The translations under genes and the position numbers were made by a program. This document shows, piece after piece, positions 31,495-40,813 of a stretch of DNA of 64,000 nucleotides. The number at the start of each line of letters is the position of its first letter. Position 1 is the stretch's first letter. This DNA is from Candidatus Bathyarchaeota archaeon. Lineage in GTDB: Archaea > Thermoproteota > Bathyarchaeia > Bathyarchaeales > Bathycorpusculaceae. The stretch covers positions 11,371 through 75,370 of the forward strand of contig CAVTZU010000001.1 of NCBI GenBank assembly GCA_963739305.1, written 5' to 3'. The notes under the pieces are model-generated. The model was not told the origin of the DNA. It did not search any database and saw only the letters and a list, made by a program, of their open reading frames with translations.

Positions 31495-32592
31495 CTAGAT
31501 CAGAAACTTCCCGTTCTTGTAGAACAGTTTGTCGTCTGCGTAGATTTCTCCGTCTTTCTTCATATCTTTGAGTATGTCCCAGTGGATTGCTGACTTGTTT
31601 TGAGCGAGAGATTCTGGATAGGAGTTGCCGAGTGCCATGTGGATTGTGCCGCCCATTTTTTCGTCAAACAGCATGTTCTTTGTGAACCTGTTTATTCCGT
31701 AGTTTGTTCCGATTGACGCCTCGCCCAGACGATCTGCGCCTTCCACCTTCAGTATTTGCTGGAGGAAATCGTCGCCCTTCGCTGCCGAGGCTTTGACAAC
31801 TCTGCCGTCTTTGAATGCGAGCTTGATGTCTTCAACTTCTCTACCTGCATAGATGCCTGGGTAGGTGAATCTTACTGTGCCGTTGACCGAGTTCTCTACA
31901 GGTCCTGTGAACACTTCTCCGTCTGGCATATTTTCTTTTCCGCTGCAGTTGATCCATTTCCTTCCTTGAACGTTGAACGTCAGATCTGTATCTTCGCCTA
32001 GGACGTGGATTTCTTTGGCTTGGTTCAAGAAGTCGCACGTCTTCTGCTGCTGTTGACTGACGCGTTTCCATTCAGCGATCGGGTCTTCTCTGTCCACTAG
32101 ACAGCTGCTGTACACGAAATTCTCGTACTCTTCCAAGGCCATTGAGGCCTCTTGAGCCTCTGCGTTTATCGGAAACGGTAAACCTGTCCATCTGAGCTTG
32201 CCCTCCCCCACTCGTTTCATAAAGATTTCCATTAGTTCTCGTCTGGCAGCCGCGCGAGTCCTCATCTTCACTGGGTCGACAGTTGACAGCCCTTTGGGGC
32301 TCGGTTCACAGAATATTCCTATGTTGACGTCAGCGTTCTCAGCAACGAATTTTATAACCGGCGAGACGAACGTGAGCTGGTGTTCCTTCGCGTACTTGTA
32401 GAAAGTGTATTCGGTGTCGAGGTTTGCGAGAACAAGCGGATGAGCATCGCTCAGCAAGCATTCTTTGTAGATTTCATTGATCAATGGATACGCAGCAGAA
32501 GTTCCCTGTATGATTACTTGCTCGTTAGGTTTCACGTTTACGCTGTAGTGGACGCAGAGTTGTGCGAGTTTTTCGATTCGTTGGTCGACCAT
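31495..32592 (-). CDS. M29 aminopeptidase (AmpS/T-like)
   Basis: NMPDGEVFT, GEASIG, FDEKMGGTIH.ALG, SAIHWD; true start likely MVDQRIEK (32592). Confidence 0.93.
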   Translation of the reverse strand: MVDQRIEKLAQLCVHYSVNVKPNEQVIIQGTSAAYPLINEIYKECLLSDAHPLVLANLDTEYTFYKYAKEHQLTFVSPVIKFVAENADVNIGIFCEPSPKGLSTVDPVKMRTRAAARRELMEIFMKRVGEGKLRWTGLPFPINAEAQEASMALEEYENFVYSSCLVDREDPIAEWKRVSQQQQKTCDFLNQAKEIHVLGEDTDLTFNVQGRKWINCSGKENMPDGEVFTGPVENSVNGTVRFTYPGIYAGREVEDIKLAFKDGRVVKASAAKGDDFLQQILKVEGADRLGEASIGTNYGINRFTKNMLFDEKMGGTIHMALGNSYPESLAQNKSAIHWDILKDMKKDGEIYADDKLFYKNGKFLI

Positions 32593-32847
32593 CTGTTTCA
32601 CCGTTGAGAAACATGGTAGTAGATTTATCTGGCTAAAAACCTTGCTGTCCTCTACAGGTCCAGCTGTACCAAAAAAGTTGAGTTGTTGCAGGTTTTCCGG
32701 CGTGAGAATCTGGGGAAATTTGTCGAGAAAGCGGATTACCGTCATCTTTTTGGTGACGACAAGTTTTATAAGACACGTTAGCTTGATCTGTGCTTCGTGC
32801 AAGAAGCGATTTTTGCACAAATCGATCAAAGGAGTTGAAATAGTAAG

Positions 32848-32988
32848 ATGGCAGAGAAAGAAATGCACAAGGCAGTTTGCGCTGAATGCGGAAAGGAATG
32901 TGAAGTCCCCTTCAAGCCTGACCCGAGCAGACCTGTTTACTGCCGAGAGTGCTGGTCCAAGAAAAGAACCACAAGAAGAAGATTCTAG
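32848..32988 (+). CDS. CxxC-x17-CxxC zinc-ribbon micro-protein (46 aa, absent from ORF track)
   Basis: MAEKEMHKAVCAECGKECEVPFKPDPSRPVYCRECWSKKRTTRRRF*; AAGGAG upstream, T-run downstream. Confidence 0.9.
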   Translation: MAEKEMHKAVCAECGKECEVPFKPDPSRPVYCRECWSKKRTTRRRF

Positions 32989-33021
32989 ACATAGCTGACG
33001 ATCGCGACCAGAGTCTGATTA

Positions 33022-33034
33022 TTCTTTTTTTCTT
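33022..33034 (+). terminator. Oligo-T terminator of the zinc-ribbon gene
   Basis: TTCTTTTTTTCTT about 35 nt after the stop codon. Confidence 0.45.
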
Positions 33035-33163
33035 ACATTATTCTGCTTCATTCTTTGAGATCATTTGATTTTGAAATGCAGCAATATACGTTGGAAACAC
33101 GCTGTTAGCTTACCGAAAGCTCTAAATCCCGTACAGTCGGTTGTTTTGTGAAAAGAACCAAGC

Positions 33164-33237
33164 GGGCCGGTAGTTCAGTTGGTATGAACGCCTGACTTGC
33201 ACTCAGGAGGTCTGGGGTTCAAATCCCCATCGGTCCA
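33164..33237 (+). tRNA. tRNA-Ala(TGC), intron-less, CCA not encoded; integration target
   Basis: GGGCCGG/TCGGTCC acceptor with G3:U70, A73; CCTGA-CTTGCAC-TCAGG; TGGGG-TTCAAAT-CCCCA. Confidence 0.96.
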
Positions 33238-33253
33238 CTCCATTCTAGAAATA
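33196..33253 (+). repeat. attL (tRNA 3' half + 16 nt)
   Basis: CTTGCACTCAGGAGGTCTGGGGTTCAAATCCCCATCGGTCCACTCCATTCTAGAAATA. Confidence 0.93.
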
Positions 33254-33450
33254 GGGGTCAAATTGAGCAATTTTATTCCCATGTTTTGATTCCCATTGAT
33301 TCCCAGAGCACCAATGCAATCTGTGCTAACTTTGTGAATTGAGTATTCTCTCTGATTCCCATTTTACCCTAGATAGTGCTTGACTCTGTAGCTGTTGCCT
33401 CTTTGCTCCATGAAGCCTTCAACACCACATACAGGGCATTTGACTTTCAA
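33196..33450 (-). pseudogene. int(N): N-terminal integrase fragment with CPxC motif and premature TAA
   Basis: GGTGA SD, TTG 33450: MKVKCPVCGVEGFMEQRGNSYRVKHYLG*NGNQREYSIHK...ISRMEWTDGDLNPRPPECK; same att reading frame as int(C); TAA at 33364-33366. Confidence 0.75.
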
Positions 33451-33567
33451 CTTTTCACCAATCTTGAAAGGCTCTCACAGGGCACATGATAAAAAGAGAT
33501 TGGTCAAAAGACAAGTATAGGCTCTAGAGAGTAGAGTTCAAATGAAATATGGCTTGGAATATGACAA

Positions 33568-34302
33568 CTAGCCAGAACTAGTGTCTGAAATCCGAGTTTG
33601 CCTATCACTCAAACCCTTCAATTGAACTATTACATTAATGCAAGATATGATCAGGAGAGGAGAAGCAAGAACTATTGCGTTACTTAGTACAGAGAAGTAA
33701 AATGGCAAGAACGCAAATACTAGGAAACCAGGAAACGAGGGCTGAGTTGCTAGAGCTACATAACCAACAACTATGAATAGGGCATAGGCAAAGATGGCAG
33801 CCAAGCTGCAGGTTCTGGAAAGACCTAATCTGATTTTCTTTTCTTCATTCATTTTCTTCAATCCGTTGGCTTCATAGACAGTGGAATAGCCCCATACTAA
33901 ACAAGTTTCAACTGCCCATAGCAGAGGACTAAAAGGAGATAACAAGAAGTACAGCCCTCCCCCAAAGCCTGCCAGAAAAAATACAAAGAATGGCAATGGA
34001 AGAATAAAAAAGAGGTTTATCTTCCACGACAAGCTCAGTTTGTCTGCTATTGTCTTCTGTCCGAGCTGGTTCCAACCTTCAACTCTCTTGTGAGCACCAT
34101 ACACCCAAAAAAACAAAATCACAAAGGGAAAGATGTATTCTAGGAAGACGAAGAAGTTATAGGAGGCAGGCAATGCAAATGCATAGGAGAAACGAAATCC
34201 AGTTCCAATGAGCAGAAGAAGACAAAGGCTTAAAAGAGAAAAAATGAAGCCAGTTCTCAGAGCCTCAAAGCTGGCTGTTCCAGGATTTCCTTCACGAGTC
34301 AT
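33568..34302 (-). CDS. Multi-pass membrane protein (element cargo)
   Basis: About 6 hydrophobic F/L-rich segments; no recognised motif. Confidence 0.7.
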   Translation of the reverse strand: MTREGNPGTASFEALRTGFIFSLLSLCLLLLIGTGFRFSYAFALPASYNFFVFLEYIFPFVILFFWVYGAHKRVEGWNQLGQKTIADKLSLSWKINLFFILPLPFFVFFLAGFGGGLYFLLSPFSPLLWAVETCLVWGYSTVYEANGLKKMNEEKKIRLGLSRTCSLAAIFAYALFIVVGYVALATQPSFPGFLVFAFLPFYFSVLSNAIVLASPLLIISCINVIVQLKGLSDRQTRISDTSSG

Positions 34303-34397
34303 CTATTCTCATTATAGACTCTCTTCTACTTCAACAAAAGCCCTGCACTATTGTTAGAACTTGTGGAAGAATCAGAAATAGTAAAAGAAATTCTTAC

Positions 34398-34622
34398 ACA
34401 ATAGAATATCAAAGAACCAAAGATATACTATACGTTGGAAACATTCTAGGACAAGTCAACATTCGAAACACTCTAGTCTACACTCACCTAGTCAACTATT
34501 GCTCTGAAGAATTCTTCTGCAAAGTAGCCACATCAATAGATGAAGCCAAATCTCTCATTGAACAGGGCTTTGAGTACGTCACAGAAATAGATGGTGTAAA
34601 GCTGTTCAGGAAACGAAAATAA
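34398..34622 (+). pseudogene. C-terminal fragment of an XerC/D-type tyrosine recombinase
   Basis: TIEYQRTKDILYVGNILGQVNIRNTLVYTHL...EAKSLIEQGFEYVTEIDGVKLFRKRK*; no start codon; catalytic LGH replaced by LGQ. Confidence 0.75.
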
Positions 34623-34678
34623 GCAAAGTTTCCTTCCCTTCTTTTTCTGTTCTGAAAATTGCTAAAGGCTCTAAGGGC

Positions 34679-36058
34679 TCAGGTTGAATGTCTTCTCTTG
34701 TAGACTATGACTGCTAGTGATGCTGCTATCATGAATAATGGAACTAAGAAGGATGGAAACTCTGGAAACACTTCTATTATTGAGCCAGAGACTGGATGAA
34801 CATATGTGAAGTACACAGTAGTGTATGTGCCATTTGATCCAACAATTCTGCTACTACTGGTGAAAGTGCCATTTATCAAAACCTGATAGTATGAAGCGTT
34901 GATTATGTCGTTTGGAAAGGTAATTCTGCAGAAACCAGTAGTTCCTTCCAAACCAGTAACTCCAGTGAGCTCTAGAAACCATCCATAGTCTGTAGGCTCA
35001 AAAGCCTGCGAGACATTCACATTTCCAATTGTTGAATTGCTGATTACTTCTATTTCTTCAAGCCTAGAGAATGGAGGCGTGTTTGCATGTACAATAAAAC
35101 TCTGAAATGTACCCATCAAGGGATAGTGGTCTGTGTTGTTTGCATCAATGACATACGGTGTATCGCCTATTCCATCCTGATTGCTGTCTGTGCCATTGTA
35201 GTCACTCCAATAGTTGCCTTCCAAATAGTTGTCAAAGTAGTTGCTTCCTGGAGATGAAAATAAGTACACTTGACCTTCCCAGTTGTTGATGAAATTGTTG
35301 TGGTACATCGAGTTGTAGTAAGACCTGTCCATCATGATACTCCAGACTGTGTCGTTGATCATGTTGTCAATCATAACATTGTTATATGCTTCAGAAAGTT
35401 CAATCCCACAAATTCCTTCAGACATTACATTTGAATATATCTCGTTGTAAGAGCTGTAAAACAATCCAATACGTTCCTGATGGCCTCCTTCAATTCTGTT
35501 TCCTATCACTTTATTTTCTGTTGAATCATTGAGTACGCAATTTACCCAATTATTGATCATAACGTTGTTTTCAATGGTGTTCTTTCTTGAAAAAGAATCC
35601 AGAAATACAGTGGTGCCATTGTTGTTTTGGAGGATGTTGTTAGCTACTACGTTGTTTGAACTGTTAACGTAGATTGCACTGTTCTCATGGTATGGGAAAA
35701 ACCCTCCTCCCTGAATTGTGAAATTGCCTACGCTTGTATTGTCTACCATGACAACGATGACTTTCTCAGTTCCATTTCCATCAATGATTGTGGTCTCCTT
35801 GTCTTGTCCAGTAAGATGTAGGGATTTGTTCAAGATGATCGTTCCATAATAGGTTCCAGCATCAACAAGTATTGTATGCCCATTCAAAGTTTCACTGGCA
35901 TCTATTGACTCTTGGATAGTGCTATAATTCAACCCAGTGTTGAGGTTATGAACGTGGTAGCCATCAGAAGCTCTCACACTGTTTTGTTGAAATCTTGGAT
36001 ACTGCAGACAAACAAGAAGAAGCAGAAAAGCAAGAATGAGAACTAACCTTCTGCTCAA
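34679..36058 (-). CDS. Secreted parallel beta-helix (NosD/pectin-lyase-like) surface protein with PEF-CTERM-like anchor
   Basis: Signal peptide; VHNLNTG.NY.TIQ.AID, Asn ladders, GNYWSDY.G.D...DGIGDTPY...D.YPL; C-terminal PEF + TM helix + KRRH. Confidence 0.88.
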   Translation of the reverse strand: MSRRLVLILAFLLLLVCLQYPRFQQNSVRASDGYHVHNLNTGLNYSTIQESIDASETLNGHTILVDAGTYYGTIILNKSLHLTGQDKETTIIDGNGTEKVIVVMVDNTSVGNFTIQGGGFFPYHENSAIYVNSSNNVVANNILQNNNGTTVFLDSFSRKNTIENNVMINNWVNCVLNDSTENKVIGNRIEGGHQERIGLFYSSYNEIYSNVMSEGICGIELSEAYNNVMIDNMINDTVWSIMMDRSYYNSMYHNNFINNWEGQVYLFSSPGSNYFDNYLEGNYWSDYNGTDSNQDGIGDTPYVIDANNTDHYPLMGTFQSFIVHANTPPFSRLEEIEVISNSTIGNVNVSQAFEPTDYGWFLELTGVTGLEGTTGFCRITFPNDIINASYYQVLINGTFTSSSRIVGSNGTYTTVYFTYVHPVSGSIIEVFPEFPSFLVPLFMIAASLAVIVYKRRHST

Positions 36059-36159
36059 GGTACACCATTAATCATACTGGTCATATCAGTAATTATGACT
36101 TATGGAGAAATCCTTCTGTTCATGTGCACAATATATGTAGCCTTATCAAAGCCTGAGAC

Positions 36160-36351
36160 TCAATCAAGAGTATTTAGTTCTTCTAGCAAGAGGTACACCC
36201 CAATCAGCAGGAACATCAAACTGGAGATTGCCATGAATGCAGACAAGTTACTCCACTCATTGAATACAGAATACACTTCATAAGTCAGATAGAATTCAAG
36301 AATACTAAGAATTATCATGAAAACACTAAACACAGTCTTGGCTATGCTCAT
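36160..36351 (-). CDS. Small two-TM membrane protein
   Basis: MSIAKTVFSVFMIIL...; GGTGA SD upstream; two hydrophobic helices. Confidence 0.6.
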   Translation of the reverse strand: MSIAKTVFSVFMIILSILEFYLTYEVYSVFNEWSNLSAFMAISSLMFLLIGVYLLLEELNTLD

Positions 36352-36477
36352 CTTCAGGTCACCAACCATTTGAAGATAGTTACGAGGCAAGTGGTTAATT
36401 TGCTTGAGGGTCTTCAGAATTCTCTTATTTCAGAACCTTTCTTTCTAAGGACCCTCTGGAAGTTTTTCATCGTAGTT

Positions 36478-37452
36478 CTAATTGCTGGTTTCACAGGGTT
36501 TGGTTGTTGTTTGGTTTGTTGAGAGTGTTTCAATTAGTTCTTTTTGTGTGGGTTCTATTGCTTTGATTACCTTTGTTTTTGTGTCTTCTAGTAGGGGTCT
36601 GTAGTAGAATTTCATGAAGATTGTTTGGCTTACTCTTCCTTGGAGCAGATCTATGAGTTCTTGCGGTAGAGTTGTTCTCAGTTTTGTTGCAAAGAGTTTT
36701 CTTAACTGTTTTGTTTGGGTGTCGAAGCCTTCTCTGCCAAGCTTTGTGTCAATGGCACTGTACTGGATTCTTGGTTTTGTTTCTTGTACTAGGGCTAGAA
36801 GCTGAGGAGTGATGATTGAGATGTAGGCGTTCTTTGATCTTCTGAGAAACAAGTCTGGAAACCTGAAGTGCTGGAGCATCATCAAGTCCCTGTCAAGATA
36901 CCCGTCTAGCATGTTCTTTTCTGAGAGTTCAGTGATTAAGCTGCATGAAACAGCTGCTTCAGTAGGTCTCAGACCAGTCAAGACAGTGAAGACAAGCACT
37001 GTTGAATATTCTCTTGGAAGCTTCTGAATGACCTTTTTCAGCCACTGTTCTGATTCTTCAAGGTTACTGTTGAGAATACTTAGGAAAATCTCTAAGCCAG
37101 TGGTGTTTTCCCATTTCAACCCATAGTTTCTGATGATCTGTTTCCATCCATCATAGATTCCCAAGTATTTGGACAGATTGCTAAGTGAGGACATCACCAT
37201 TCTTCTCATGTCTTTGCTGAGCATTGGAAGCTGAGAAGCAAAACTAGGGTTCTCTAGTATGACAGAGTATCTTTTTGCATATCTCAGAATCTCTTTCACA
37301 TGTTTCCTTCTGTGAGTATTGATTAGCCAAGATGCAAAGTTCTCCCATTGAACATCTTTAATCCTCTTGCACTCAGGAGGTCTGGGGTTCAAATCCCCAT
37401 CGGGCCACTCCATTCTAGAAATAAGGCTTGCGTTAGGCTCATTTACTTGCAT
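36478..37452 (-). CDS. int(C): SSV1-type tyrosine integrase catalytic moiety, read through attR
   Basis: att translated as RMEWPDGDLNPRPPECK; catalytic pattern GLRPTEA (R), KQLRK (KxxR), LLQGR (R), FYYRP (Y). Confidence 0.92.
   Translation of the reverse strand: MQVNEPNASLISRMEWPDGDLNPRPPECKRIKDVQWENFASWLINTHRRKHVKEILRYAKRYSVILENPSFASQLPMLSKDMRRMVMSSLSNLSKYLGIYDGWKQIIRNYGLKWENTTGLEIFLSILNSNLEESEQWLKKVIQKLPREYSTVLVFTVLTGLRPTEAAVSCSLITELSEKNMLDGYLDRDLMMLQHFRFPDLFLRRSKNAYISIITPQLLALVQETKPRIQYSAIDTKLGREGFDTQTKQLRKLFATKLRTTLPQELIDLLQGRVSQTIFMKFYYRPLLEDTKTKVIKAIEPTQKELIETLSTNQTTTKPCETSN
37366..37423 (+). repeat. attR (one mismatch to attL: T33234 vs G37404)
   Basis: 57 of 58 nt identical to 33196-33253. 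Confidence 0.93.
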
Positions 37453-37622
37453 TGCTTTACTTGCAAGCGGGCGCTAGCCTACATTCATCAAAGCTGTTGC
37501 CGGTAATGTTGATTTTTGAGGAACTATCCTGGAACTGTCTGGCATTGTTTTGTGTCATCGTGTCTGATTGTACCAAGGAACAGAATTATTAGTTGCAGTT
37601 GTCATAGTTGCTAAAGGTGTAT

Positions 37623-37967
37623 ATGAGAAAGAAGCCTGCTCTAATTGCTCTGGTAATTCTTGCGCTTGGTCTGGTTGGAACAGGGCTTTCAGCATTTTAT
37701 ATGCAGAATGAATACTCTGCGGATATAACAGTAAGCAAATTCACGGTCAAAATATCTCATGGTTTTCCACTCGGTTGGTATGGACATTCAGACACATGAG
37801 GAGGCATTCCCTTTTCTATGACAAATTGGTTCTCATTAGAATCACTTCTACTGGATGCTGCATTCTGGATTGCCATCACTTTCTTTGTAAGTATTGCTAC
37901 AATGAAATTAGTGAACATATTACACAAGACAAGAGCTTCAAAGAATCTGTCTGTTATTAACATATAG
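37623..37967 (+). pseudogene. Membrane protein interrupted by in-frame TGA
   Basis: MRKKPALIALV...GFPLGWYGHSDT*GGIPFSMTNWFSLESLLLDAAFWIAITFF...*; frame continues through TGA 37797-37799 into a second TM helix. Confidence 0.6.
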
Positions 37968-38058
37968 AGCTAGAATTGAGCTTCTTTTCTATCTGAAGTT
38001 CTATTTATAGCCAATGATGCAGTCTTTAATACTAATTCCACTAGATTTGATTTCTTGA

Positions 38059-38565
38059 GTGACTCAGATGTTGGACATACCATCTATTTCAGCAATCGTA
38101 GCAGTAATAGGTGTTTTGATAGGTGTTGTCCTTGCAGTATTGGAGCTTAGAAATCTGGTTAAGCAGAGGAAATCGGACCTTCTAATGAGACTGCACTTAG
38201 CCTTCAGCACAAAAGAAACTTCCGAAGCAGTCCTCAAGTACATGTCCATAGAATACAAAGATTACGATGATTTCGTAGAGAAATACGGCTCACCCTTTGC
38301 TGAAGGACCAGTCCAAACAGTCTTCGTTATGGTGGGAAATTTCTTTGAAGGAATTGGTGTTCTTCTGAAAAGAAAACTCGTTGAGATAGACCTTGTCACT
38401 GAACTCTTCGCAGTTGAGATGTTCTGGCTAAAATGGAAGCCATTGGTTGAAGGCACGAGAAAACAATTTAACAACCCACAGCTCCTTGTGTGGTTCGAAT
38501 ACTTGTACAATGAAGCGAAGAAGAGAGAACAGAAGCTTCAGCAATCAGGTGTGAAGGGAGAGTAG
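38059..38565 (+). CDS. DUF4760-like protein with N-terminal TM helix
   Basis: TM helix, then YKDYDDFVEKYG, NFFEGIGVLLKRKL, FEYLYNE. Confidence 0.75.
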   Translation: MTQMLDIPSISAIVAVIGVLIGVVLAVLELRNLVKQRKSDLLMRLHLAFSTKETSEAVLKYMSIEYKDYDDFVEKYGSPFAEGPVQTVFVMVGNFFEGIGVLLKRKLVEIDLVTELFAVEMFWLKWKPLVEGTRKQFNNPQLLVWFEYLYNEAKKREQKLQQSGVKGE

Positions 38566-38573
38566 ATAGACCT

Positions 38574-39104
38574 GTGAGATTTGATGTTGGCTGTGATTTG
38601 GATGAGTTTAGAAGATACCACAGGAACAGTGATATTCACAAATTTCTGAAGTCAACAGGAGTCACTGATGGCTATGATGAAAATCTCAACTATCTACTGA
38701 ACGTTGTGATCAAAGATTCTTCTCAACTCATTGTCTGGAGGGAAGACAACAAGGTTGTGGGCCACGCAGTCTGGCATGAAAGCAATACTGAAGAACACAG
38801 AAAAGGTGATCCCAGAGAAAAAGAAGATACTAAAGCACTAAAGAAACTCTTGGGTGGAAAGAAGAACTTCGTTGAGCTTCATGAAATCTGGCTGATCAAG
38901 GAGTACAGAGGAAAAGGCTATGGAGAAATGTTCCATGATTTCTTTGAGAAATTCATGAAAGACAAAGGCTATTCTGATATTGTCTTCTATGCTAATCATC
39001 CTGCTGCACTAGCCATATGCCGCAAACATGGATACAAAGAAGGAGGATACCTAGCAGGACTGAAGGAGTATGTTTTCTGTCTCCCGTTGAAGAAGAATCC
39101 CTGA
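38574..39104 (+). CDS. GNAT-family acetyltransferase
   Basis: Acetyl-CoA loop EYRGKGYG; N..A..I.RK.GY. Confidence 0.85.
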   Translation: MRFDVGCDLDEFRRYHRNSDIHKFLKSTGVTDGYDENLNYLLNVVIKDSSQLIVWREDNKVVGHAVWHESNTEEHRKGDPREKEDTKALKKLLGGKKNFVELHEIWLIKEYRGKGYGEMFHDFFEKFMKDKGYSDIVFYANHPAALAICRKHGYKEGGYLAGLKEYVFCLPLKKNP

Positions 39105-39201
39105 GCCTTGCATTGTCTACGTTTCGAAATTCAGGGGCTCTTCAGCATTTTTGTGAACGTCAAAACATAATAGACCTGCCATACATGACGTTGTTATAGC
39201 T

Positions 39202-39592
39202 ATGAAGTTCTTGCATAGATTGGCAGTTTATGCTCTGGTCACTGCAATGATTGAAGTGCCCTCTATCTTGGTACTGTACAGCTCTGGATATCCCAATGAA
39301 CCCTTCTTCCAATTGGGTGTCTTGGGCATTTCTGATTGCTTAAAATCTCTACTTCTTGCTCATTGCCTTTTCTGCCATAGGTGGTCCAGTTCCTGGTCAA
39401 GGACCAAGAGACATCTCTTTTGACCTAGTCTGGGGAGTAGTGTCAATGTTCATAATCATAACTGCAATAGGAGAAGCAATAAACTGGCTGATTGAAGAAG
39501 ATCAGAAAACTGAGAAGACCAAAGAAACCTCAAAATCAAATCGACTTCTCCAAAGATTTCAGGGACTCCTTAGAATGTCTGTGTCTTCGTAG
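39202..39592 (+). pseudogene. Disrupted membrane protein (frameshift plus stop)
   Basis: Two overlapping hydrophobic ORFs (39202-39423, 39356-39592); joining them needs a frameshift and read-through of a TAA. Confidence 0.45.
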
Positions 39593-39880
39593 ATACGAAA
39601 AAGAAAAAAGGCGGGGACTGGTGTTTTGTGAGTTTAGATTTTTCTCTTGTTCAGTACGGATCTGAAGCTTTTTCCACAACAGACAAAGAGTCCGATTGTG
39701 AGTTCAGTTCTCTTGCCACTCTTGTCTTTTCTGCCAGCCATCTTCCAGGTCTTCTTAGGAGTACTGACTTCTTTCTTACACTTGGGACATTTAGCCATAA
39801 CATTCCCTTTTTACAGAGTTACATCAGATCAGGTTAAAACATTTTTCATGATTTTGGAATTCAGATTTCAGGGGGTAGTA

Positions 39881-40060
39881 ATGGAAGTATTGATTGGAAT
39901 GACTTTGATTGCAGCTGGGATCGTGTTGTCAATGAATTCTCAACAAAGCGGTGTGGATCTAAGCAGGGATTGCTTCATCTTTGGCATCCCTCTCTTCGTT
40001 ATTTGCCTAATCCTATTGACAATATGGAAAAGGTACTCTGAGAATAGACAAAGCAACTGA
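39881..40060 (+). CDS. Small two-TM membrane protein
   Basis: MEVLIGMTLIAAGIVL...FIFGIPLFVICLILLTIWKR; GGGGT SD-like upstream. Confidence 0.5.
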   Translation: MEVLIGMTLIAAGIVLSMNSQQSGVDLSRDCFIFGIPLFVICLILLTIWKRYSENRQSN

Positions 40061-40240
40061 GTCCTATGCTTTCTTGTCTACATCCCAGCATTGTCTGATT
40101 TGTTGTCCGCCTTAGATTGATACTACATTACTTTCAGAGACTCCCATGGAATTTCCAATCGAAGTTCCAATAGCGGAAAGAAAAAAGATAGTCAGTTCTG
40201 TACGTGTAACTTTCCTCAGAAGCCGTGTCTTGTTTCAATT

Positions 40241-40813
40241 CTACATTGGAATCATGCGCTGTCTGGTTCTGTTGTACAGACTCCAGGCTACAAAGTACGT
40301 CAGCAAAGAAACAGCGAAGCTGAGAAACACATACTGACTCAACACTGAAAACAGGTTGTTTGACAAGTGTAATGCCACAGCAACCAAGTAAAAAGGAAAA
40401 GTCTGTTTCCTTCCGATCCCGTAGGCGATTATAGAAGTCGACGAGGCATGAAAGAATATTCCGGGCAACCTCACGATGAAAGGAACATTCAGGAGAACTA
40501 CGTACTCTACGAACTCGGCGATGCCGAACCCCAAACCGACCAGGAAACCCAACGTGAAGATGGATCTCTCAGTCTCAGCGTGACGGTAAAACAAAGGATA
40601 TGCCTTGGAAAACTCTTCAATAACAGGCGCCAGGAGGACCACTGAAACTATCGTGCCGTAGGTTGAGGACATAGTGACTGGCAAGAAACCTGAAAAACCG
40701 GTTATAAACAACGTTAAGGGGATGCTCACAGTGACTCCGGAAAGAAGAAAGAAAAGCTTCTCTTTCAGCTTCGGTTTGTGAACCGGAATTGTCATGCTTG
40801 CTTGTTCCGTCAT
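40241..40813 (-). CDS. PrsW-family intramembrane metalloprotease
   Basis: APVIEEFSK (EExxK), GLGFG..E, H, ALH..NN. Confidence 0.88.
   Translation of the reverse strand: MTEQASMTIPVHKPKLKEKLFFLLSGVTVSIPLTLFITGFSGFLPVTMSSTYGTIVSVVLLAPVIEEFSKAYPLFYRHAETERSIFTLGFLVGLGFGIAEFVEYVVLLNVPFIVRLPGIFFHASSTSIIAYGIGRKQTFPFYLVAVALHLSNNLFSVLSQYVFLSFAVSLLTYFVAWSLYNRTRQRMIPM

What the first reader, a model, noticed from the sequence alone, without database searches (positions are those of the whole stretch)
37366..37423. The only attL/attR mismatch hits U70, the alanine identity base, so excision would cripple tRNA-Ala
Seen: T33234 (tRNA position 70, pairing with G3) is G at 37404. Established: G3:U70 is the major determinant for AlaRS, and SSV-type integrases exchange strands in the anticodon arm, 5' of this site. 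Inference: excision would rebuild the chromosomal tRNA with the attR 3' half, giving G3:G70 and a probably unchargeable tRNA-Ala(UGC). One substitution would thus lock the island in, an addiction without a toxin. The change also recodes the integrase (Thr to Pro).
Basis: partly seen in the sequence, partly recalled or inferred. Interest (0 to 1): 0.7.

Follow-up and report, generated by a model that had tools for sequence, protein, structure and literature searches.

The report
Decayed spare half of alanine tRNA
A small mobile element sits in the only alanine tRNA(UGC) gene of an uncultured archaeon, and the leftover spare copy of the tRNA's back half has mutated at the base the alanine-charging enzyme reads, so cutting the element out would probably ruin the tRNA; this looks like ordinary decay, not a designed lock.

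Summary
A 58-nt direct repeat (33196-33253 and 37366-37423) bounds a 4.17-kb element inserted in tRNA-Ala(UGC). Its one mismatch is T33234, which is U70 paired with G3, against G37404.

G is the derived state. All 32 related att copies in 29 metagenome loci carry T, and so does every related integrase N-terminus long enough to read.

- The identity block starts at the anticodon loop in 17 of 17 related islands, where the SSV1 integrase is reported to cut.
- The genome shows one tRNA-Ala(UGC) gene.
- The host AlaRS keeps the residues that read G3 and U70.

"Addiction" is not supported. Six of the 17 islands carry scattered tRNA-breaking changes in the unused copy, which fits neutral decay.

The same effect is already known in bacteria: excision of CP4-57 and its relatives removes the U of the G·U pair in tmRNA.

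Three things were not settled: read support for G37404, the crossover point, and whether a G3·G70 tRNA can be charged.

Earlier notes of this scan describe decayed displaced tRNA ends on other DNA, but none describes a hit on an identity base.

The parts
33164..33237 (+). tRNA-Ala(UGC) gene, the functional copy. G3 is 33166 and U70 is T33234. No CCA is encoded.
   Evidence: ARAGORN (it adds one base, to 33238). The cloverleaf shows g+t at the third acceptor pair.
33196..33253 (+). attL identity block. It runs from the anticodon loop (position 32) to 16 nt past the discriminator.
33254..33522 (-). Arm of element 1 beside attL (P' arm). On the minus strand it holds an ATG at 33282-33280 in frame with the att-encoded peptide (MGIKLLNLTPISRMEWTDGD..). 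This 269-nt segment is missing in relatives.
   Evidence: Translation. Joint 33253>33523 in run X5. L025 lacks the segment.
33568..34302 (-). Cargo: 244-aa predicted membrane protein with no family match.
34679..36058 (-). Cargo: 459-aa NosD / right-handed beta-helix protein.
   Evidence: PF05048, 2.1e-20; PF13229, 2.1e-07.
36160..36390 (-). Cargo: 76-aa small hydrophobic ORF with no family match.
36478..37452 (-). Integrase ORF of 324 aa, SSV-type family. Residues 10-29 are read from attR. Residues 1-9 come from the arm of the older element. Residue 17 is Pro, where relatives have Thr.
   Evidence: PF16795 at 22.6 bits, below the cut-off of 27. phrog_5127 integrase at 5.7e-09. Homologues carry PF16795. 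All invariant columns of alignment A1 are kept.
37366..37423 (+). attR: the displaced, unused copy of the tRNA 3' part. It carries G37404 at position 70.
37424..40400 (.). Remnant of an older related element with no integrase. It comprises a P'-type arm with TTACTTGCA repeats, a DUF4760 gene (38059-38565, +) and a GNAT gene (38574-39104, +). The right end is approximate and taken from GC content.
   Evidence: The arm is homologous to the tRNA-proximal arms in G002, G005 and G008. DUF4760 homologues lie inside the G002 island and in L026. GC is 0.38-0.42 here against 0.47-0.52 outside. Pfam matches.

Best explanation
G37404 is a private point substitution (T to G) in the displaced, unexpressed copy of the 3' part of tRNA-Ala(UGC). 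That copy lies at the right junction of a 4.17-kb integrated element, which carries an SSV-type tyrosine integrase with its att site inside the gene.

How it arose (inferred): when the element inserted, its own copy of the tRNA 3' part became the working end of the gene (attL). The previous 3' part was pushed 4.17 kb away (attR). From then on the displaced copy was no longer selected as a tRNA and began to drift.

What follows (inferred): integrases of this kind most likely exchange strands at the anticodon-loop end of the repeat. Integrase-mediated excision would therefore rejoin the 5' part of the gene to the drifted copy and produce G3·G70 in the only tRNA-Ala(UGC) gene. The host AlaRS is of the canonical kind that reads G3:U70. 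Cells that excise the element should thus be dead or badly impaired, and the island is in practice fixed.

This lock is a by-product of decay, a ratchet. It is not an evolved addiction device.

Shown here: the repeat, the mismatch, that G is derived, the single gene copy, and the family-wide position of the repeat boundary.

Inferred: the crossover point, the charging defect, lethality, and the neutrality of the change.
For: 1. G is the derived state.
- All 32 att-like copies found in 29 of 47 related metagenome loci carry T at position 70. The search motif did not cover that position.
- By my reading, 16 of the 120 listed homologues, plus cluster member P0127, extend far enough upstream and read Trp-Thr. 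None reads Trp-Pro.
- The closest relatives, L025 and L026 (92-93% integrase identity), have T.

2. Decay of the unused copy is common in this family.
- Among 169 sequences scanned, 17 distinct attL/attR pairs were found, on tRNA-Ala, Thr, Val, Cys and Arg.
- Six of the 17 carry mismatches. All are in the partial copy, and each breaks a stem pair or the anticodon. By my counting from the printed alignments the positions are: 70 (window), 72 (L094), 35, 36 and 68 (L147), 70 (L154), 42 (L166) and 64 (L167).

3. Crossover point.
- In 17 of 17 pairs the identity block begins at the anticodon loop or its stem junction and ends at or just past the tRNA 3' end.
- Passages of the review PMC8371274 state that IntSSV1 strand exchanges border an overlap region corresponding to the anticodon loop. 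They also state that pTN3 and pT26-2 sites need the anticodon loop.

4. Consequence for the cell.
- One tRNA-Ala(tgc) was found among 37 tRNAs called by ARAGORN and among 50 called with intron search. A DNA search with the tRNA found only the gene, attR, and the CGC and GGC isoacceptors.
- GCA makes up 31% of Ala codons in a crude count over long ORFs.
- The host has a 931-aa AlaRS (E = 5e-220 to the A. fulgidus enzyme). It keeps the VPSN and LYDSHG motifs that align with A. fulgidus Asn359 and Asp450. Those residues are stated to contact U70 and G3 (passage of PMC11392972).

5. The integrase looks intact.
- The ORF is open, and all 21 invariant columns of a 30-sequence alignment are kept.
- The older element's arm supplies an in-frame N-terminus (NASLISRMEW). 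It resembles the N-terminus of P0127 (NASIISRLEW), which is encoded on L025, where int-att runs on into element sequence.
Against: - Read support for G37404 was not obtained. In one search the contigs break inside the repeat. The right-flank contigs of X2 and X3 begin at 37394. By my own reasoning about 31-mer assembly graphs, that is where a contig would break if 37394-37423 were identical to attL, that is, if the base were T. The contigs X1 37383-37647 and X2 37394-37647 each contain one difference not among the printed rows, and it could lie at 37404.
- The crossover point was not measured. The same review notes that the cleavage position may vary in vivo.
- No data on charging of a G3·G70 tRNA by an archaeal AlaRS were found. 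From recall, some 3:70 mispairs keep partial function in E. coli in vivo.
- The MAG is 97.1% complete with 7.82% contamination, so a second gene copy cannot be fully excluded.
- Drift is only weakly visible over time. L025 and the window differ by about 11% over the integrase and att DNA (88.5% identity), yet the tRNA part of the att copy in L025 has no change and the window copy has one. That is fewer than free drift over that distance would give. Repeated re-integration, gene conversion from attL, or coding constraint could explain it.
- A second island (L154) has its only mismatch at the same position and changed to the same base. Pure chance explains this only moderately well.
Confidence: 0.6

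Rival explanations
1. The change has no consequence. This could be because the strand exchange lies 3' of position 70, because the element never excises, or because it is lost only through homologous recombination within the 19 identical bases to the right of the mismatch. In each case a normal tRNA gene would remain.
For: - The sequence alone confines the crossover only to tRNA positions 32 to about 74.
- The review notes a preference of archaeal integrases for the tRNA 3' end with varied 5' limits, and possible variation of the cleavage position in vivo.
- 19 identical bases (33235-33253 and 37405-37423) lie to the right of the mismatch.
- No contig that clearly shows an empty site or a circle of this element was seen.
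Against: - The identity block starts at the anticodon loop in 17 of 17 pairs on five tRNA species. An element has reason to carry and conserve the whole 3' part of a tRNA only if that part replaces the host's on insertion (the argument of Campbell and Williams, cited in passages).
- IntSSV1 cuts are reported at the borders of the anticodon loop.
- The integrase ORF is open and keeps all invariant residues.
- L025 shows an int-att-element arrangement, expected of a circle or a head-to-tail copy, so relatives appear to be mobile.
Confidence: 0.2
2. G37404 is an assembly or base-calling artefact, or a minority variant that the assembler picked up. The population would then carry T, and the two att copies would be identical.
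For: - No row for 37404 is among those printed.
- The contigs of X2 and X3 begin at 37394, and there are unlisted differences in the X1 and X2 contigs that cover the site.
- Every relative has T.
- The genome is a MAG with 7.82% contamination.
Against: - A random error landing on this base is far less likely beforehand than a real change. Five of 16 other islands show real-looking changes in the same kind of copy.
- The X2 contig also differs from the window at 37537, so it may come from another strain.
- The window sequence is otherwise matched by X1 contigs, with 0-3 differences per contig across the island (table 8).
Confidence: 0.08
3. The change was selected, in one of two ways. It may be a lock that kills cells which lose the island. 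Or it may be an excision-coupled switch like the bacterial ssrA prophages.
For: - The hit is on the single strongest AlaRS determinant.
- In several gamma-proteobacteria, excision of ssrA prophages removes the corresponding U of tmRNA. The authors of PMC10107115 treat this as a regulatory switch (passages).
- A second island of this integrase family (L154, tRNA-Val) has its only mismatch at position 70, also changed to G.
- The tandem arrangement restores a full-length integrase ORF, so excision may be a real risk in this cell line.
Against: - The change is private to one copy.
- The other five mismatched islands are hit at positions 35, 36, 42, 64, 68, 70 and 72. None of these is a known major identity base of its tRNA, as far as I recall, and position 70 is not one for tRNA-Val.
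- All six mismatches inside the probe region fall on stem positions, but by my arithmetic that has a chance of about 0.06, given 20 stem positions among 32. This is not significant.
- Here the target is a sole tRNA with no back-up, so there is no 'switch' state to move to.
- A lock benefits the element only if excision is frequent, and nothing shows that it is.
- No toxin-antitoxin or defence family was found in 8 ORFs of the region.
Confidence: 0.07

Closest known systems
Excision-coupled inactivation of ssrA (tmRNA) by P4-integrase prophages: CP4-57 in E. coli, CP4So in Shewanella, and others (passages of PMC10107115; PMC5148205 seen only as a search listing)
   Same: An element sits in the 3' part of a tRNA-like gene. 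The copy at the far junction differs from the working copy at the U of the G·U wobble pair that AlaRS reads. Excision therefore leaves a molecule that cannot be charged with alanine. The authors judge that the changes were acquired independently after integration.
   Different: The bacterial cases involve a one-base deletion in a dispensable RNA, with a back-up pathway (ArfA), a P4-type integrase, and excision that has been demonstrated. Here the change is a T-to-G substitution in a true and apparently sole tRNA-Ala(UGC) of an archaeon. The integrase is SSV-type, no back-up was found, and no excision has been shown.
SSV-type ('suicidal', type I) archaeal integrases and gene capture: SSV1, pTN3, pT26-2 (passages of PMC8371274; passages of PMC7253208)
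   Same: The att site lies inside the integrase gene and antiparallel to a tRNA gene. The repeat runs from the anticodon region to just past the tRNA 3' end. Relatives carry PF16795. Integration separates the start of the gene from the rest.
   Different: The att site sits at the extreme N-terminus, so only about 16 codons and the promoter are split off. Here an older element's arm restores a full ORF. The hosts are mesophilic Bathyarchaeia and Nitrososphaeria (record titles), not hyperthermophiles. The window protein itself scores below the Pfam cut-off.
Single attL/attR mismatch of the Thermococcales element TspEXT12c_IV1 (passage of PMC7253208; its supplementary figures could not be seen)
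   Same: There is one base difference between attL and attR within the tRNA part.
   Different: In that case both alleles exist as working tRNA genes, and the mismatch was read as integration into a non-identical allele. Here a G70 allele cannot be a working tRNA-Ala and is seen in no relative, so a change after integration is the better reading.
Toxin-antitoxin / post-segregational killing modules (recalled general knowledge)
   Same: Loss of the element would kill the cell.
   Different: There is no toxin, no antitoxin and no differential stability. The effect comes from damage to a host gene at excision, and nothing shows that it was selected.

Membership tests
SSV-type ('suicidal') tyrosine integrase, Pfam PF16795 | Match to the Phage_integr_3 catalytic domain | tested here: inconclusive
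   The window protein scores 22.6 bits (E = 1.1e-4) against a cut-off of 27. It matches phrog_5127 integrase at 5.7e-09. Many homologues at 35-76% identity carry PF16795 in precomputed annotation. No PDB relative was found by sequence.
SSV-type ('suicidal') tyrosine integrase, Pfam PF16795 | The att site lies inside the integrase reading frame, antiparallel to the tRNA | tested here: met
   attR is read as residues 10-29 of the ORF. The same tRNA-derived peptide begins the homologues.
SSV-type ('suicidal') tyrosine integrase, Pfam PF16795 | Integration splits the gene into int(N) and int(C) | tested here: inconclusive
   At most about 16 codons and the presumed promoter remain at attL. In the window the ORF is completed again by the arm of an older element.
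SSV-type ('suicidal') tyrosine integrase, Pfam PF16795 | Conserved Arg...Arg...Tyr catalytic residues | tested here: met
   R162, R251, R273 and Y283 are invariant in 30 sequences and present in the window protein. Their catalytic role is inferred, not tested.
SSV-type ('suicidal') tyrosine integrase, Pfam PF16795 | Strand exchange at the borders of the anticodon loop | not testable with these tools
   There is only indirect support: the repeat boundary lies at the anticodon loop in 17 of 17 pairs, and the literature on IntSSV1 agrees.
Excision-coupled inactivation of an AlaRS-charged RNA gene (CP4-57 / CP4So kind) | The far-junction copy differs from the working copy at the U of the G·U identity pair | tested here: met
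   T33234 against G37404, at position 70. Here the change is a substitution, not a deletion.
Excision-coupled inactivation of an AlaRS-charged RNA gene (CP4-57 / CP4So kind) | Excision occurs and leaves the altered copy in the chromosome | not testable with these tools
   No clear empty-site or circle contig was seen. The one joint, 33239>37384 in X1, has only 24 letters on its shorter side.
Excision-coupled inactivation of an AlaRS-charged RNA gene (CP4-57 / CP4So kind) | A back-up lets the excisant live, so that excision acts as a switch | tested here: not met
   No second tRNA-Ala(UGC) was found in the 97.1%-complete MAG. The CGC and GGC isoacceptors cannot read GCA (established wobble rules, recalled).
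Addiction module (selected lock-in) | Signs that the locking change is selected or recurrent within the element's lineage | tested here: not met
   The change is private to this copy. Mismatches in 5 of 16 other islands are scattered over stems and the anticodon. No toxin-antitoxin or defence family was found in 8 ORFs.

The most novel reading that the evidence does not exclude
Decay of the displaced tRNA half may be a general one-way ratchet. Under this reading it turns tRNA-integrated elements of archaea into islands whose excision is lethal. Hits on the 3:70 pair would be favoured because they disable the rebuilt tRNA without touching the recombination site. Three observations point this way: U70 of tRNA-Ala in the window, position 70 of tRNA-Val in L154, and U357 of tmRNA in several bacteria. 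Host lineages or elements carrying such a change would then out-persist the others.
Probability: 0.1. Interest if true: 0.7.

Novelty: new variant of a known kind. Interest (0 to 1): 0.38.

Why it matters
If G37404 is real and the crossover lies at the anticodon loop, this is a natural case in which one neutral-looking base change makes loss of a mobile element lethal. It would act through the best-known tRNA identity rule, in an archaeon, and on an essential tRNA rather than on dispensable tmRNA.

It offers a simple and testable route from mobile element to fixed island. That route adds to the 'gene capture' idea for integrases that split their own gene. It also suggests a measurable quantity for surveys: how often the displaced tRNA half has become unusable.

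On its own, however, it is a single base in a MAG. The general effect is already documented in bacteria.

Tried and rejected
Read check
- The look-up of sequencing runs offered only Logan contigs.
- Read laying on 32500-38500 with X1, X2, X3 and X5 at 90% likeness did not print a row for 37404. The contigs break inside the repeat, so G37404 is neither confirmed nor refuted.
- The joint 33239>37384 (X1, depth 15, 24 letters on the shorter side) is too short to count as an empty site.
- Depth over the island (12.4, 11.3 and 14.6 in X1-X3, bins 33706-34509) is similar to that of the strain's flank contigs (18.6 and 14.5; 16.2 and 16.5). Contigs cannot show absence of an excised form.

Closest relative's contig
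- Its cluster members mostly start downstream of the site. Only P0127 reaches it, and it reads Thr.

Viral contigs
- A scan of viral contigs with the att sequence, with N at the variable base, found nothing.

Pre-existing difference between the element's site and the host's
- I considered that the mismatch existed before integration, as in TspEXT12c_IV1.
- I rejected this. With an anticodon-loop crossover, the attR half is the earlier working tRNA end, and G70 cannot have been functional.
- With a 3' crossover, the element would have had to carry G, but its relatives at 92-93% identity carry T.

Narrowing the crossover from natural variation
- Variation among tRNA-Ala alleles did not help. In all pairs the partial copy equals the full copy at the variable positions, and both models allow that.

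The 16 nt of identity past the tRNA end
- I considered that this marks the crossover.
- I rejected this. It reflects homology between the arms of two related elements in tandem.

Enrichment on stem positions
- All six mismatches within the probe region fall on stems. By my arithmetic the chance of this is about 0.06, with a classification chosen after the fact. I do not count it as evidence.

Second att remnant or integrase
- I looked for one to the right of 37424. None was found, and the GCGCGCGC motif of the native flank is absent between 1053 and 52973.

Structure search
- A PDB sequence search with the integrase gave only chance-level hits.

Papers
- The TnSmu1 paper and the listing gave no case of a tRNA made unusable by excision.
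- Searches found no description of this effect for an archaeal tRNA.
Full report
WHAT IS THERE

The window holds one tRNA gene, tRNA-Ala(UGC), at 33164-33237 on the + strand. ARAGORN's cloverleaf shows the third acceptor pair as G·T. By the ruler this pair is G33166 with T33234, which is position 70.

A direct repeat of the 3' part of this gene lies 4170 bases downstream. The first 58 nt, 33196-33253 and 37366-37423, differ only at T33234 versus G37404. A 24-nt probe from the tRNA 3' part, allowing up to three mismatches, finds only these two places in 64 kb. None was expected in 100 shuffles.

The repeat begins at the first base of the anticodon loop.

ANATOMY OF THE LOCUS

Between the repeats lie four minus-strand ORFs:
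- a 244-aa membrane protein;
- a 459-aa NosD/beta-helix protein;
- a 76-aa hydrophobic ORF;
- a 324-aa integrase.

The integrase scores just under the Pfam cut-off for PF16795, 'Archaeal phage integrase' (22.6 bits against 27). It matches a PHROG integrase family. It has 134 homologues with E ≤ 0.001 among 1004 candidates, and many of those carry PF16795. The ones that are named come from Bathyarchaeia and Nitrososphaeria. It keeps all 21 invariant columns of a 30-sequence alignment, including three arginines and a tyrosine in the C-terminal half.

Residues 10-29 are read from attR on the opposite strand. The same tRNA-derived peptide opens the homologues, and other subgroups open with peptides derived from other tRNAs. 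This is the layout of the SSV-type, or 'suicidal', integrases (review passages). The difference here is that the site sits at the very start of the gene.

THE RIGHT FLANK IS AN OLDER ELEMENT, NOT PLAIN CHROMOSOME

The left flank is syntenic across the genus, and the right flank is not.
- In relatives G001 and G009, and at the far junction of the G002 island, the tRNA end is followed by a GC-alternating native flank.
- The window's attL, the window's attR, G002's attL, G005 and G008 are all followed by a shared element-type arm, with a ..TAGAAATA.. motif and repeats of TTACTTGC.
- A DUF4760 gene lies just right of attR. It has homologues inside the G002 island and beside the integrase of L026.
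- GC content is 0.38-0.42 from about 33200 to about 40400, against 0.47-0.52 outside.

The 4.17-kb element therefore inserted next to a remnant of an older relative that has lost its integrase. This explains why the repeat runs 16 nt past the tRNA end.

It also explains why the integrase ORF stays open up to an ATG at 37452. The old arm encodes an N-terminus (NASLISRMEW) like that of P0127 (NASIISRLEW).

G IS THE DERIVED STATE

A motif in the T-arm and variable region, which does not cover position 70, found 32 att-like copies in 29 of 47 related metagenome loci. All 32 have T at position 70.

By my reading, 16 of the 120 listed homologues extend far enough upstream to be read at this site. 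They read Trp-Thr, and none reads Trp-Pro. The one member of the closest 90% cluster that reaches the site, P0127, reads Thr. The closest loci, L025 and L026 (92-93% integrase identity), have T.

In L025 the integrase and att are followed by sequence homologous to the left end of the window's element (33523-33677). That is the arrangement of a circle or a head-to-tail copy.

IS G REAL?

This remains open. Only Logan contigs were on offer. Laid on 32500-38500, they break inside the repeat. No row for 37404 is among those printed, and 260 rows were not shown.

The contigs of X2 and X3 begin exactly at 37394. By my own reasoning about 31-mer assembly graphs, that is where a contig would break if 37394-37423 were shared with attL, which would need T. 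The X1 and X2 contigs that cover the site each hold one difference that is not listed.

Against this, the X2 contig also differs at 37537, so it may come from another strain. Beforehand, a real change is much more likely than an error. I put the artefact reading at about 0.08.

WHERE IS THE CROSSOVER?

The sequence alone confines it to tRNA positions 32 to about 74.

Among 169 sequences scanned (168 loci and a window segment), I found 17 distinct attL/attR pairs of this integrase family, on tRNA-Ala, Thr, Val, Cys and Arg. There were 18 rows, but L084 and L089 are the same G002 locus. The method needs a called tRNA and a partial copy with at most 4 substitutions in a 32-nt probe, so badly decayed copies are missed.

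In 17 of 17 pairs the identity starts at the anticodon loop, or 2-5 nt into its stem, and ends at or shortly after the tRNA end. By my arithmetic from the coordinates, the partial copy lies at the start of the integrase in 15 of 17. L048 and L110 have another layout.

An element has reason to carry the entire 3' part of a tRNA only if that part replaces the host's. That places the exchange at the left end of the block. The review PMC8371274 (passages) reports that IntSSV1 strand exchanges border an overlap region equal to the anticodon loop. It also reports that pTN3 and pT26-2 sites must include that loop, while noting that cleavage may vary in vivo.

I take the anticodon-loop crossover as likely but not shown.

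CONSEQUENCE FOR THE CELL

With that crossover, excision rejoins the 5' part of the gene to the attR copy, giving G3·G70. The circle takes the attL copy, so the integrase of the free element would read Thr, not Pro.
- The MAG is 2.32 Mb in 36 contigs, 97.1% complete with 7.82% contamination. It shows one tRNA-Ala(tgc), one ggc and one cgc among 37 ARAGORN calls. With intron search there is still one tgc among 50 calls.
- A DNA search with the tRNA finds only the gene, attR and the two other isoacceptors.
- GCA is the commonest Ala codon in a crude count over long ORFs, at 31%.
- The host has a 931-aa AlaRS. Its VPSN and LYDSHG motifs align with Asn359 and Asp450 of the A. fulgidus enzyme. Those residues are stated to contact U70 and G3 (passage of PMC11392972). 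That paper also reports that the complete N. equitans enzyme depends on G3:U70.

No data on a G·G pair at 3:70 were found. From recall, some mispairs retain partial function in E. coli in vivo. 'Crippled' is therefore an inference.

DRIFT OR DESIGN?

Six of the 17 pairs have mismatches. All are in the partial copy, and each breaks a stem pair or the anticodon. By my counting the positions are 70 (window), 72 (L094), 35, 36 and 68 (L147), 70 (L154, tRNA-Val, also to G), 42 (L166) and 64 (L167). Two further integrase-adjacent copies without a partner in view, L051 and L058, also differ from the common tRNA-Ala sequence in a stem.

This is what drift in an unused copy looks like, and the hits are not confined to identity bases.

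Two points keep a small door open for selection. First, position 70 is hit twice, both times to G. Second, the att copies have changed less than the roughly 11% DNA divergence between the window and L025 would predict under free drift. The second point could equally reflect re-integration, gene conversion from attL, or coding constraint.

No toxin-antitoxin or defence family is present in eight ORFs of the region.

COMPARISON WITH WHAT IS KNOWN

The closest known case is bacterial. Excision of CP4-57 (E. coli), CP4So (Shewanella) and other P4-integrase prophages deletes U357 of tmRNA. That is the U of the G·U pair AlaRS reads, and the deletion abolishes trans-translation. The authors regard these changes as acquired independently after integration (passages of PMC10107115).

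The window shows the same logic with four differences:
- a substitution instead of a deletion;
- a true and apparently sole tRNA instead of a dispensable RNA with a back-up;
- an archaeal host;
- an SSV-type integrase.

Badel et al. describe one attL/attR mismatch in a Thermococcales element and read it as integration into another allele (passage of PMC7253208; its supplements could not be seen). That reading does not fit here, because a G70 allele cannot have been a working tRNA-Ala.

My searches found no description of this effect for an archaeal tRNA. Earlier notes of this scan describe decayed displaced tRNA ends on other DNA, but none describes a hit on an identity base.

VERDICT

The mechanistic consequence is plausible. 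The 'addiction' reading is not supported.

It is best filed as a new variant of a known effect. It rests on one base of a MAG that still needs read support.

Noticed in passing
window 37424-40400: An integrase-less remnant of an older element of the same family lies directly right of attR. It has a P'-type arm, a DUF4760 gene and a GNAT gene, with GC of 0.38-0.42 against 0.47-0.52 outside. No second att copy or integrase was found to close it.
   Followed up: partly
window 37443-37465; L084 (G002) and L085 (G005) just downstream of tRNA-Ala: Two to three closely spaced copies of a TTACTTGC motif sit at a conserved distance from the tRNA end in the element arms of three genomes. They are candidates for integrase arm sites or for integrase promoter elements.
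   Followed up: partly
L154 (tRNA-Val GAC island in a Nitrososphaeraceae MAG): The only attL/attR mismatch is again at tRNA position 70, here C to G. It gives the same eight bases as the window's attR. No explanation was found for the coincidence.
   Followed up: no
L025 (whole locus); window 33254-33522: L025 has integrase and att followed by the left end of the element, as in a circle or a head-to-tail copy. It lacks a 269-nt segment present in the window's arm. The same skip (33253>33523) appears in a contig of run X5.
   Followed up: partly
window 36481-37539: Contigs in X1, X2 and X3 (depth 37.8-83.2, several times that of the island) join 36481 to 37539 with 19 other letters between. They skip the integrase and attR. 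Only 26 letters lie on the shorter side, so this may be another organism or a relative without this integrase.
   Followed up: no
L048 and L110: In these two islands the integrase lies beside the complete tRNA and in the same orientation, with the partial tRNA copy at the far end. This layout is unlike the other 15 pairs.
   Followed up: no
window 1046, 52973, 54265, 58155, 60006; flanks of tRNA-Ala in G001, G009 and G002: The octamer GCGCGCGC occurs 5 times in the window against 0.61 expected. It also marks the native flank downstream of tRNA-Ala in relatives. Its meaning is unknown.
   Followed up: no
G000 contig C15:54245-54445: With intron search, ARAGORN calls a tRNA-Ala(cgc) with a 123-nt intron. 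It is possibly a false call and was not examined.
   Followed up: no
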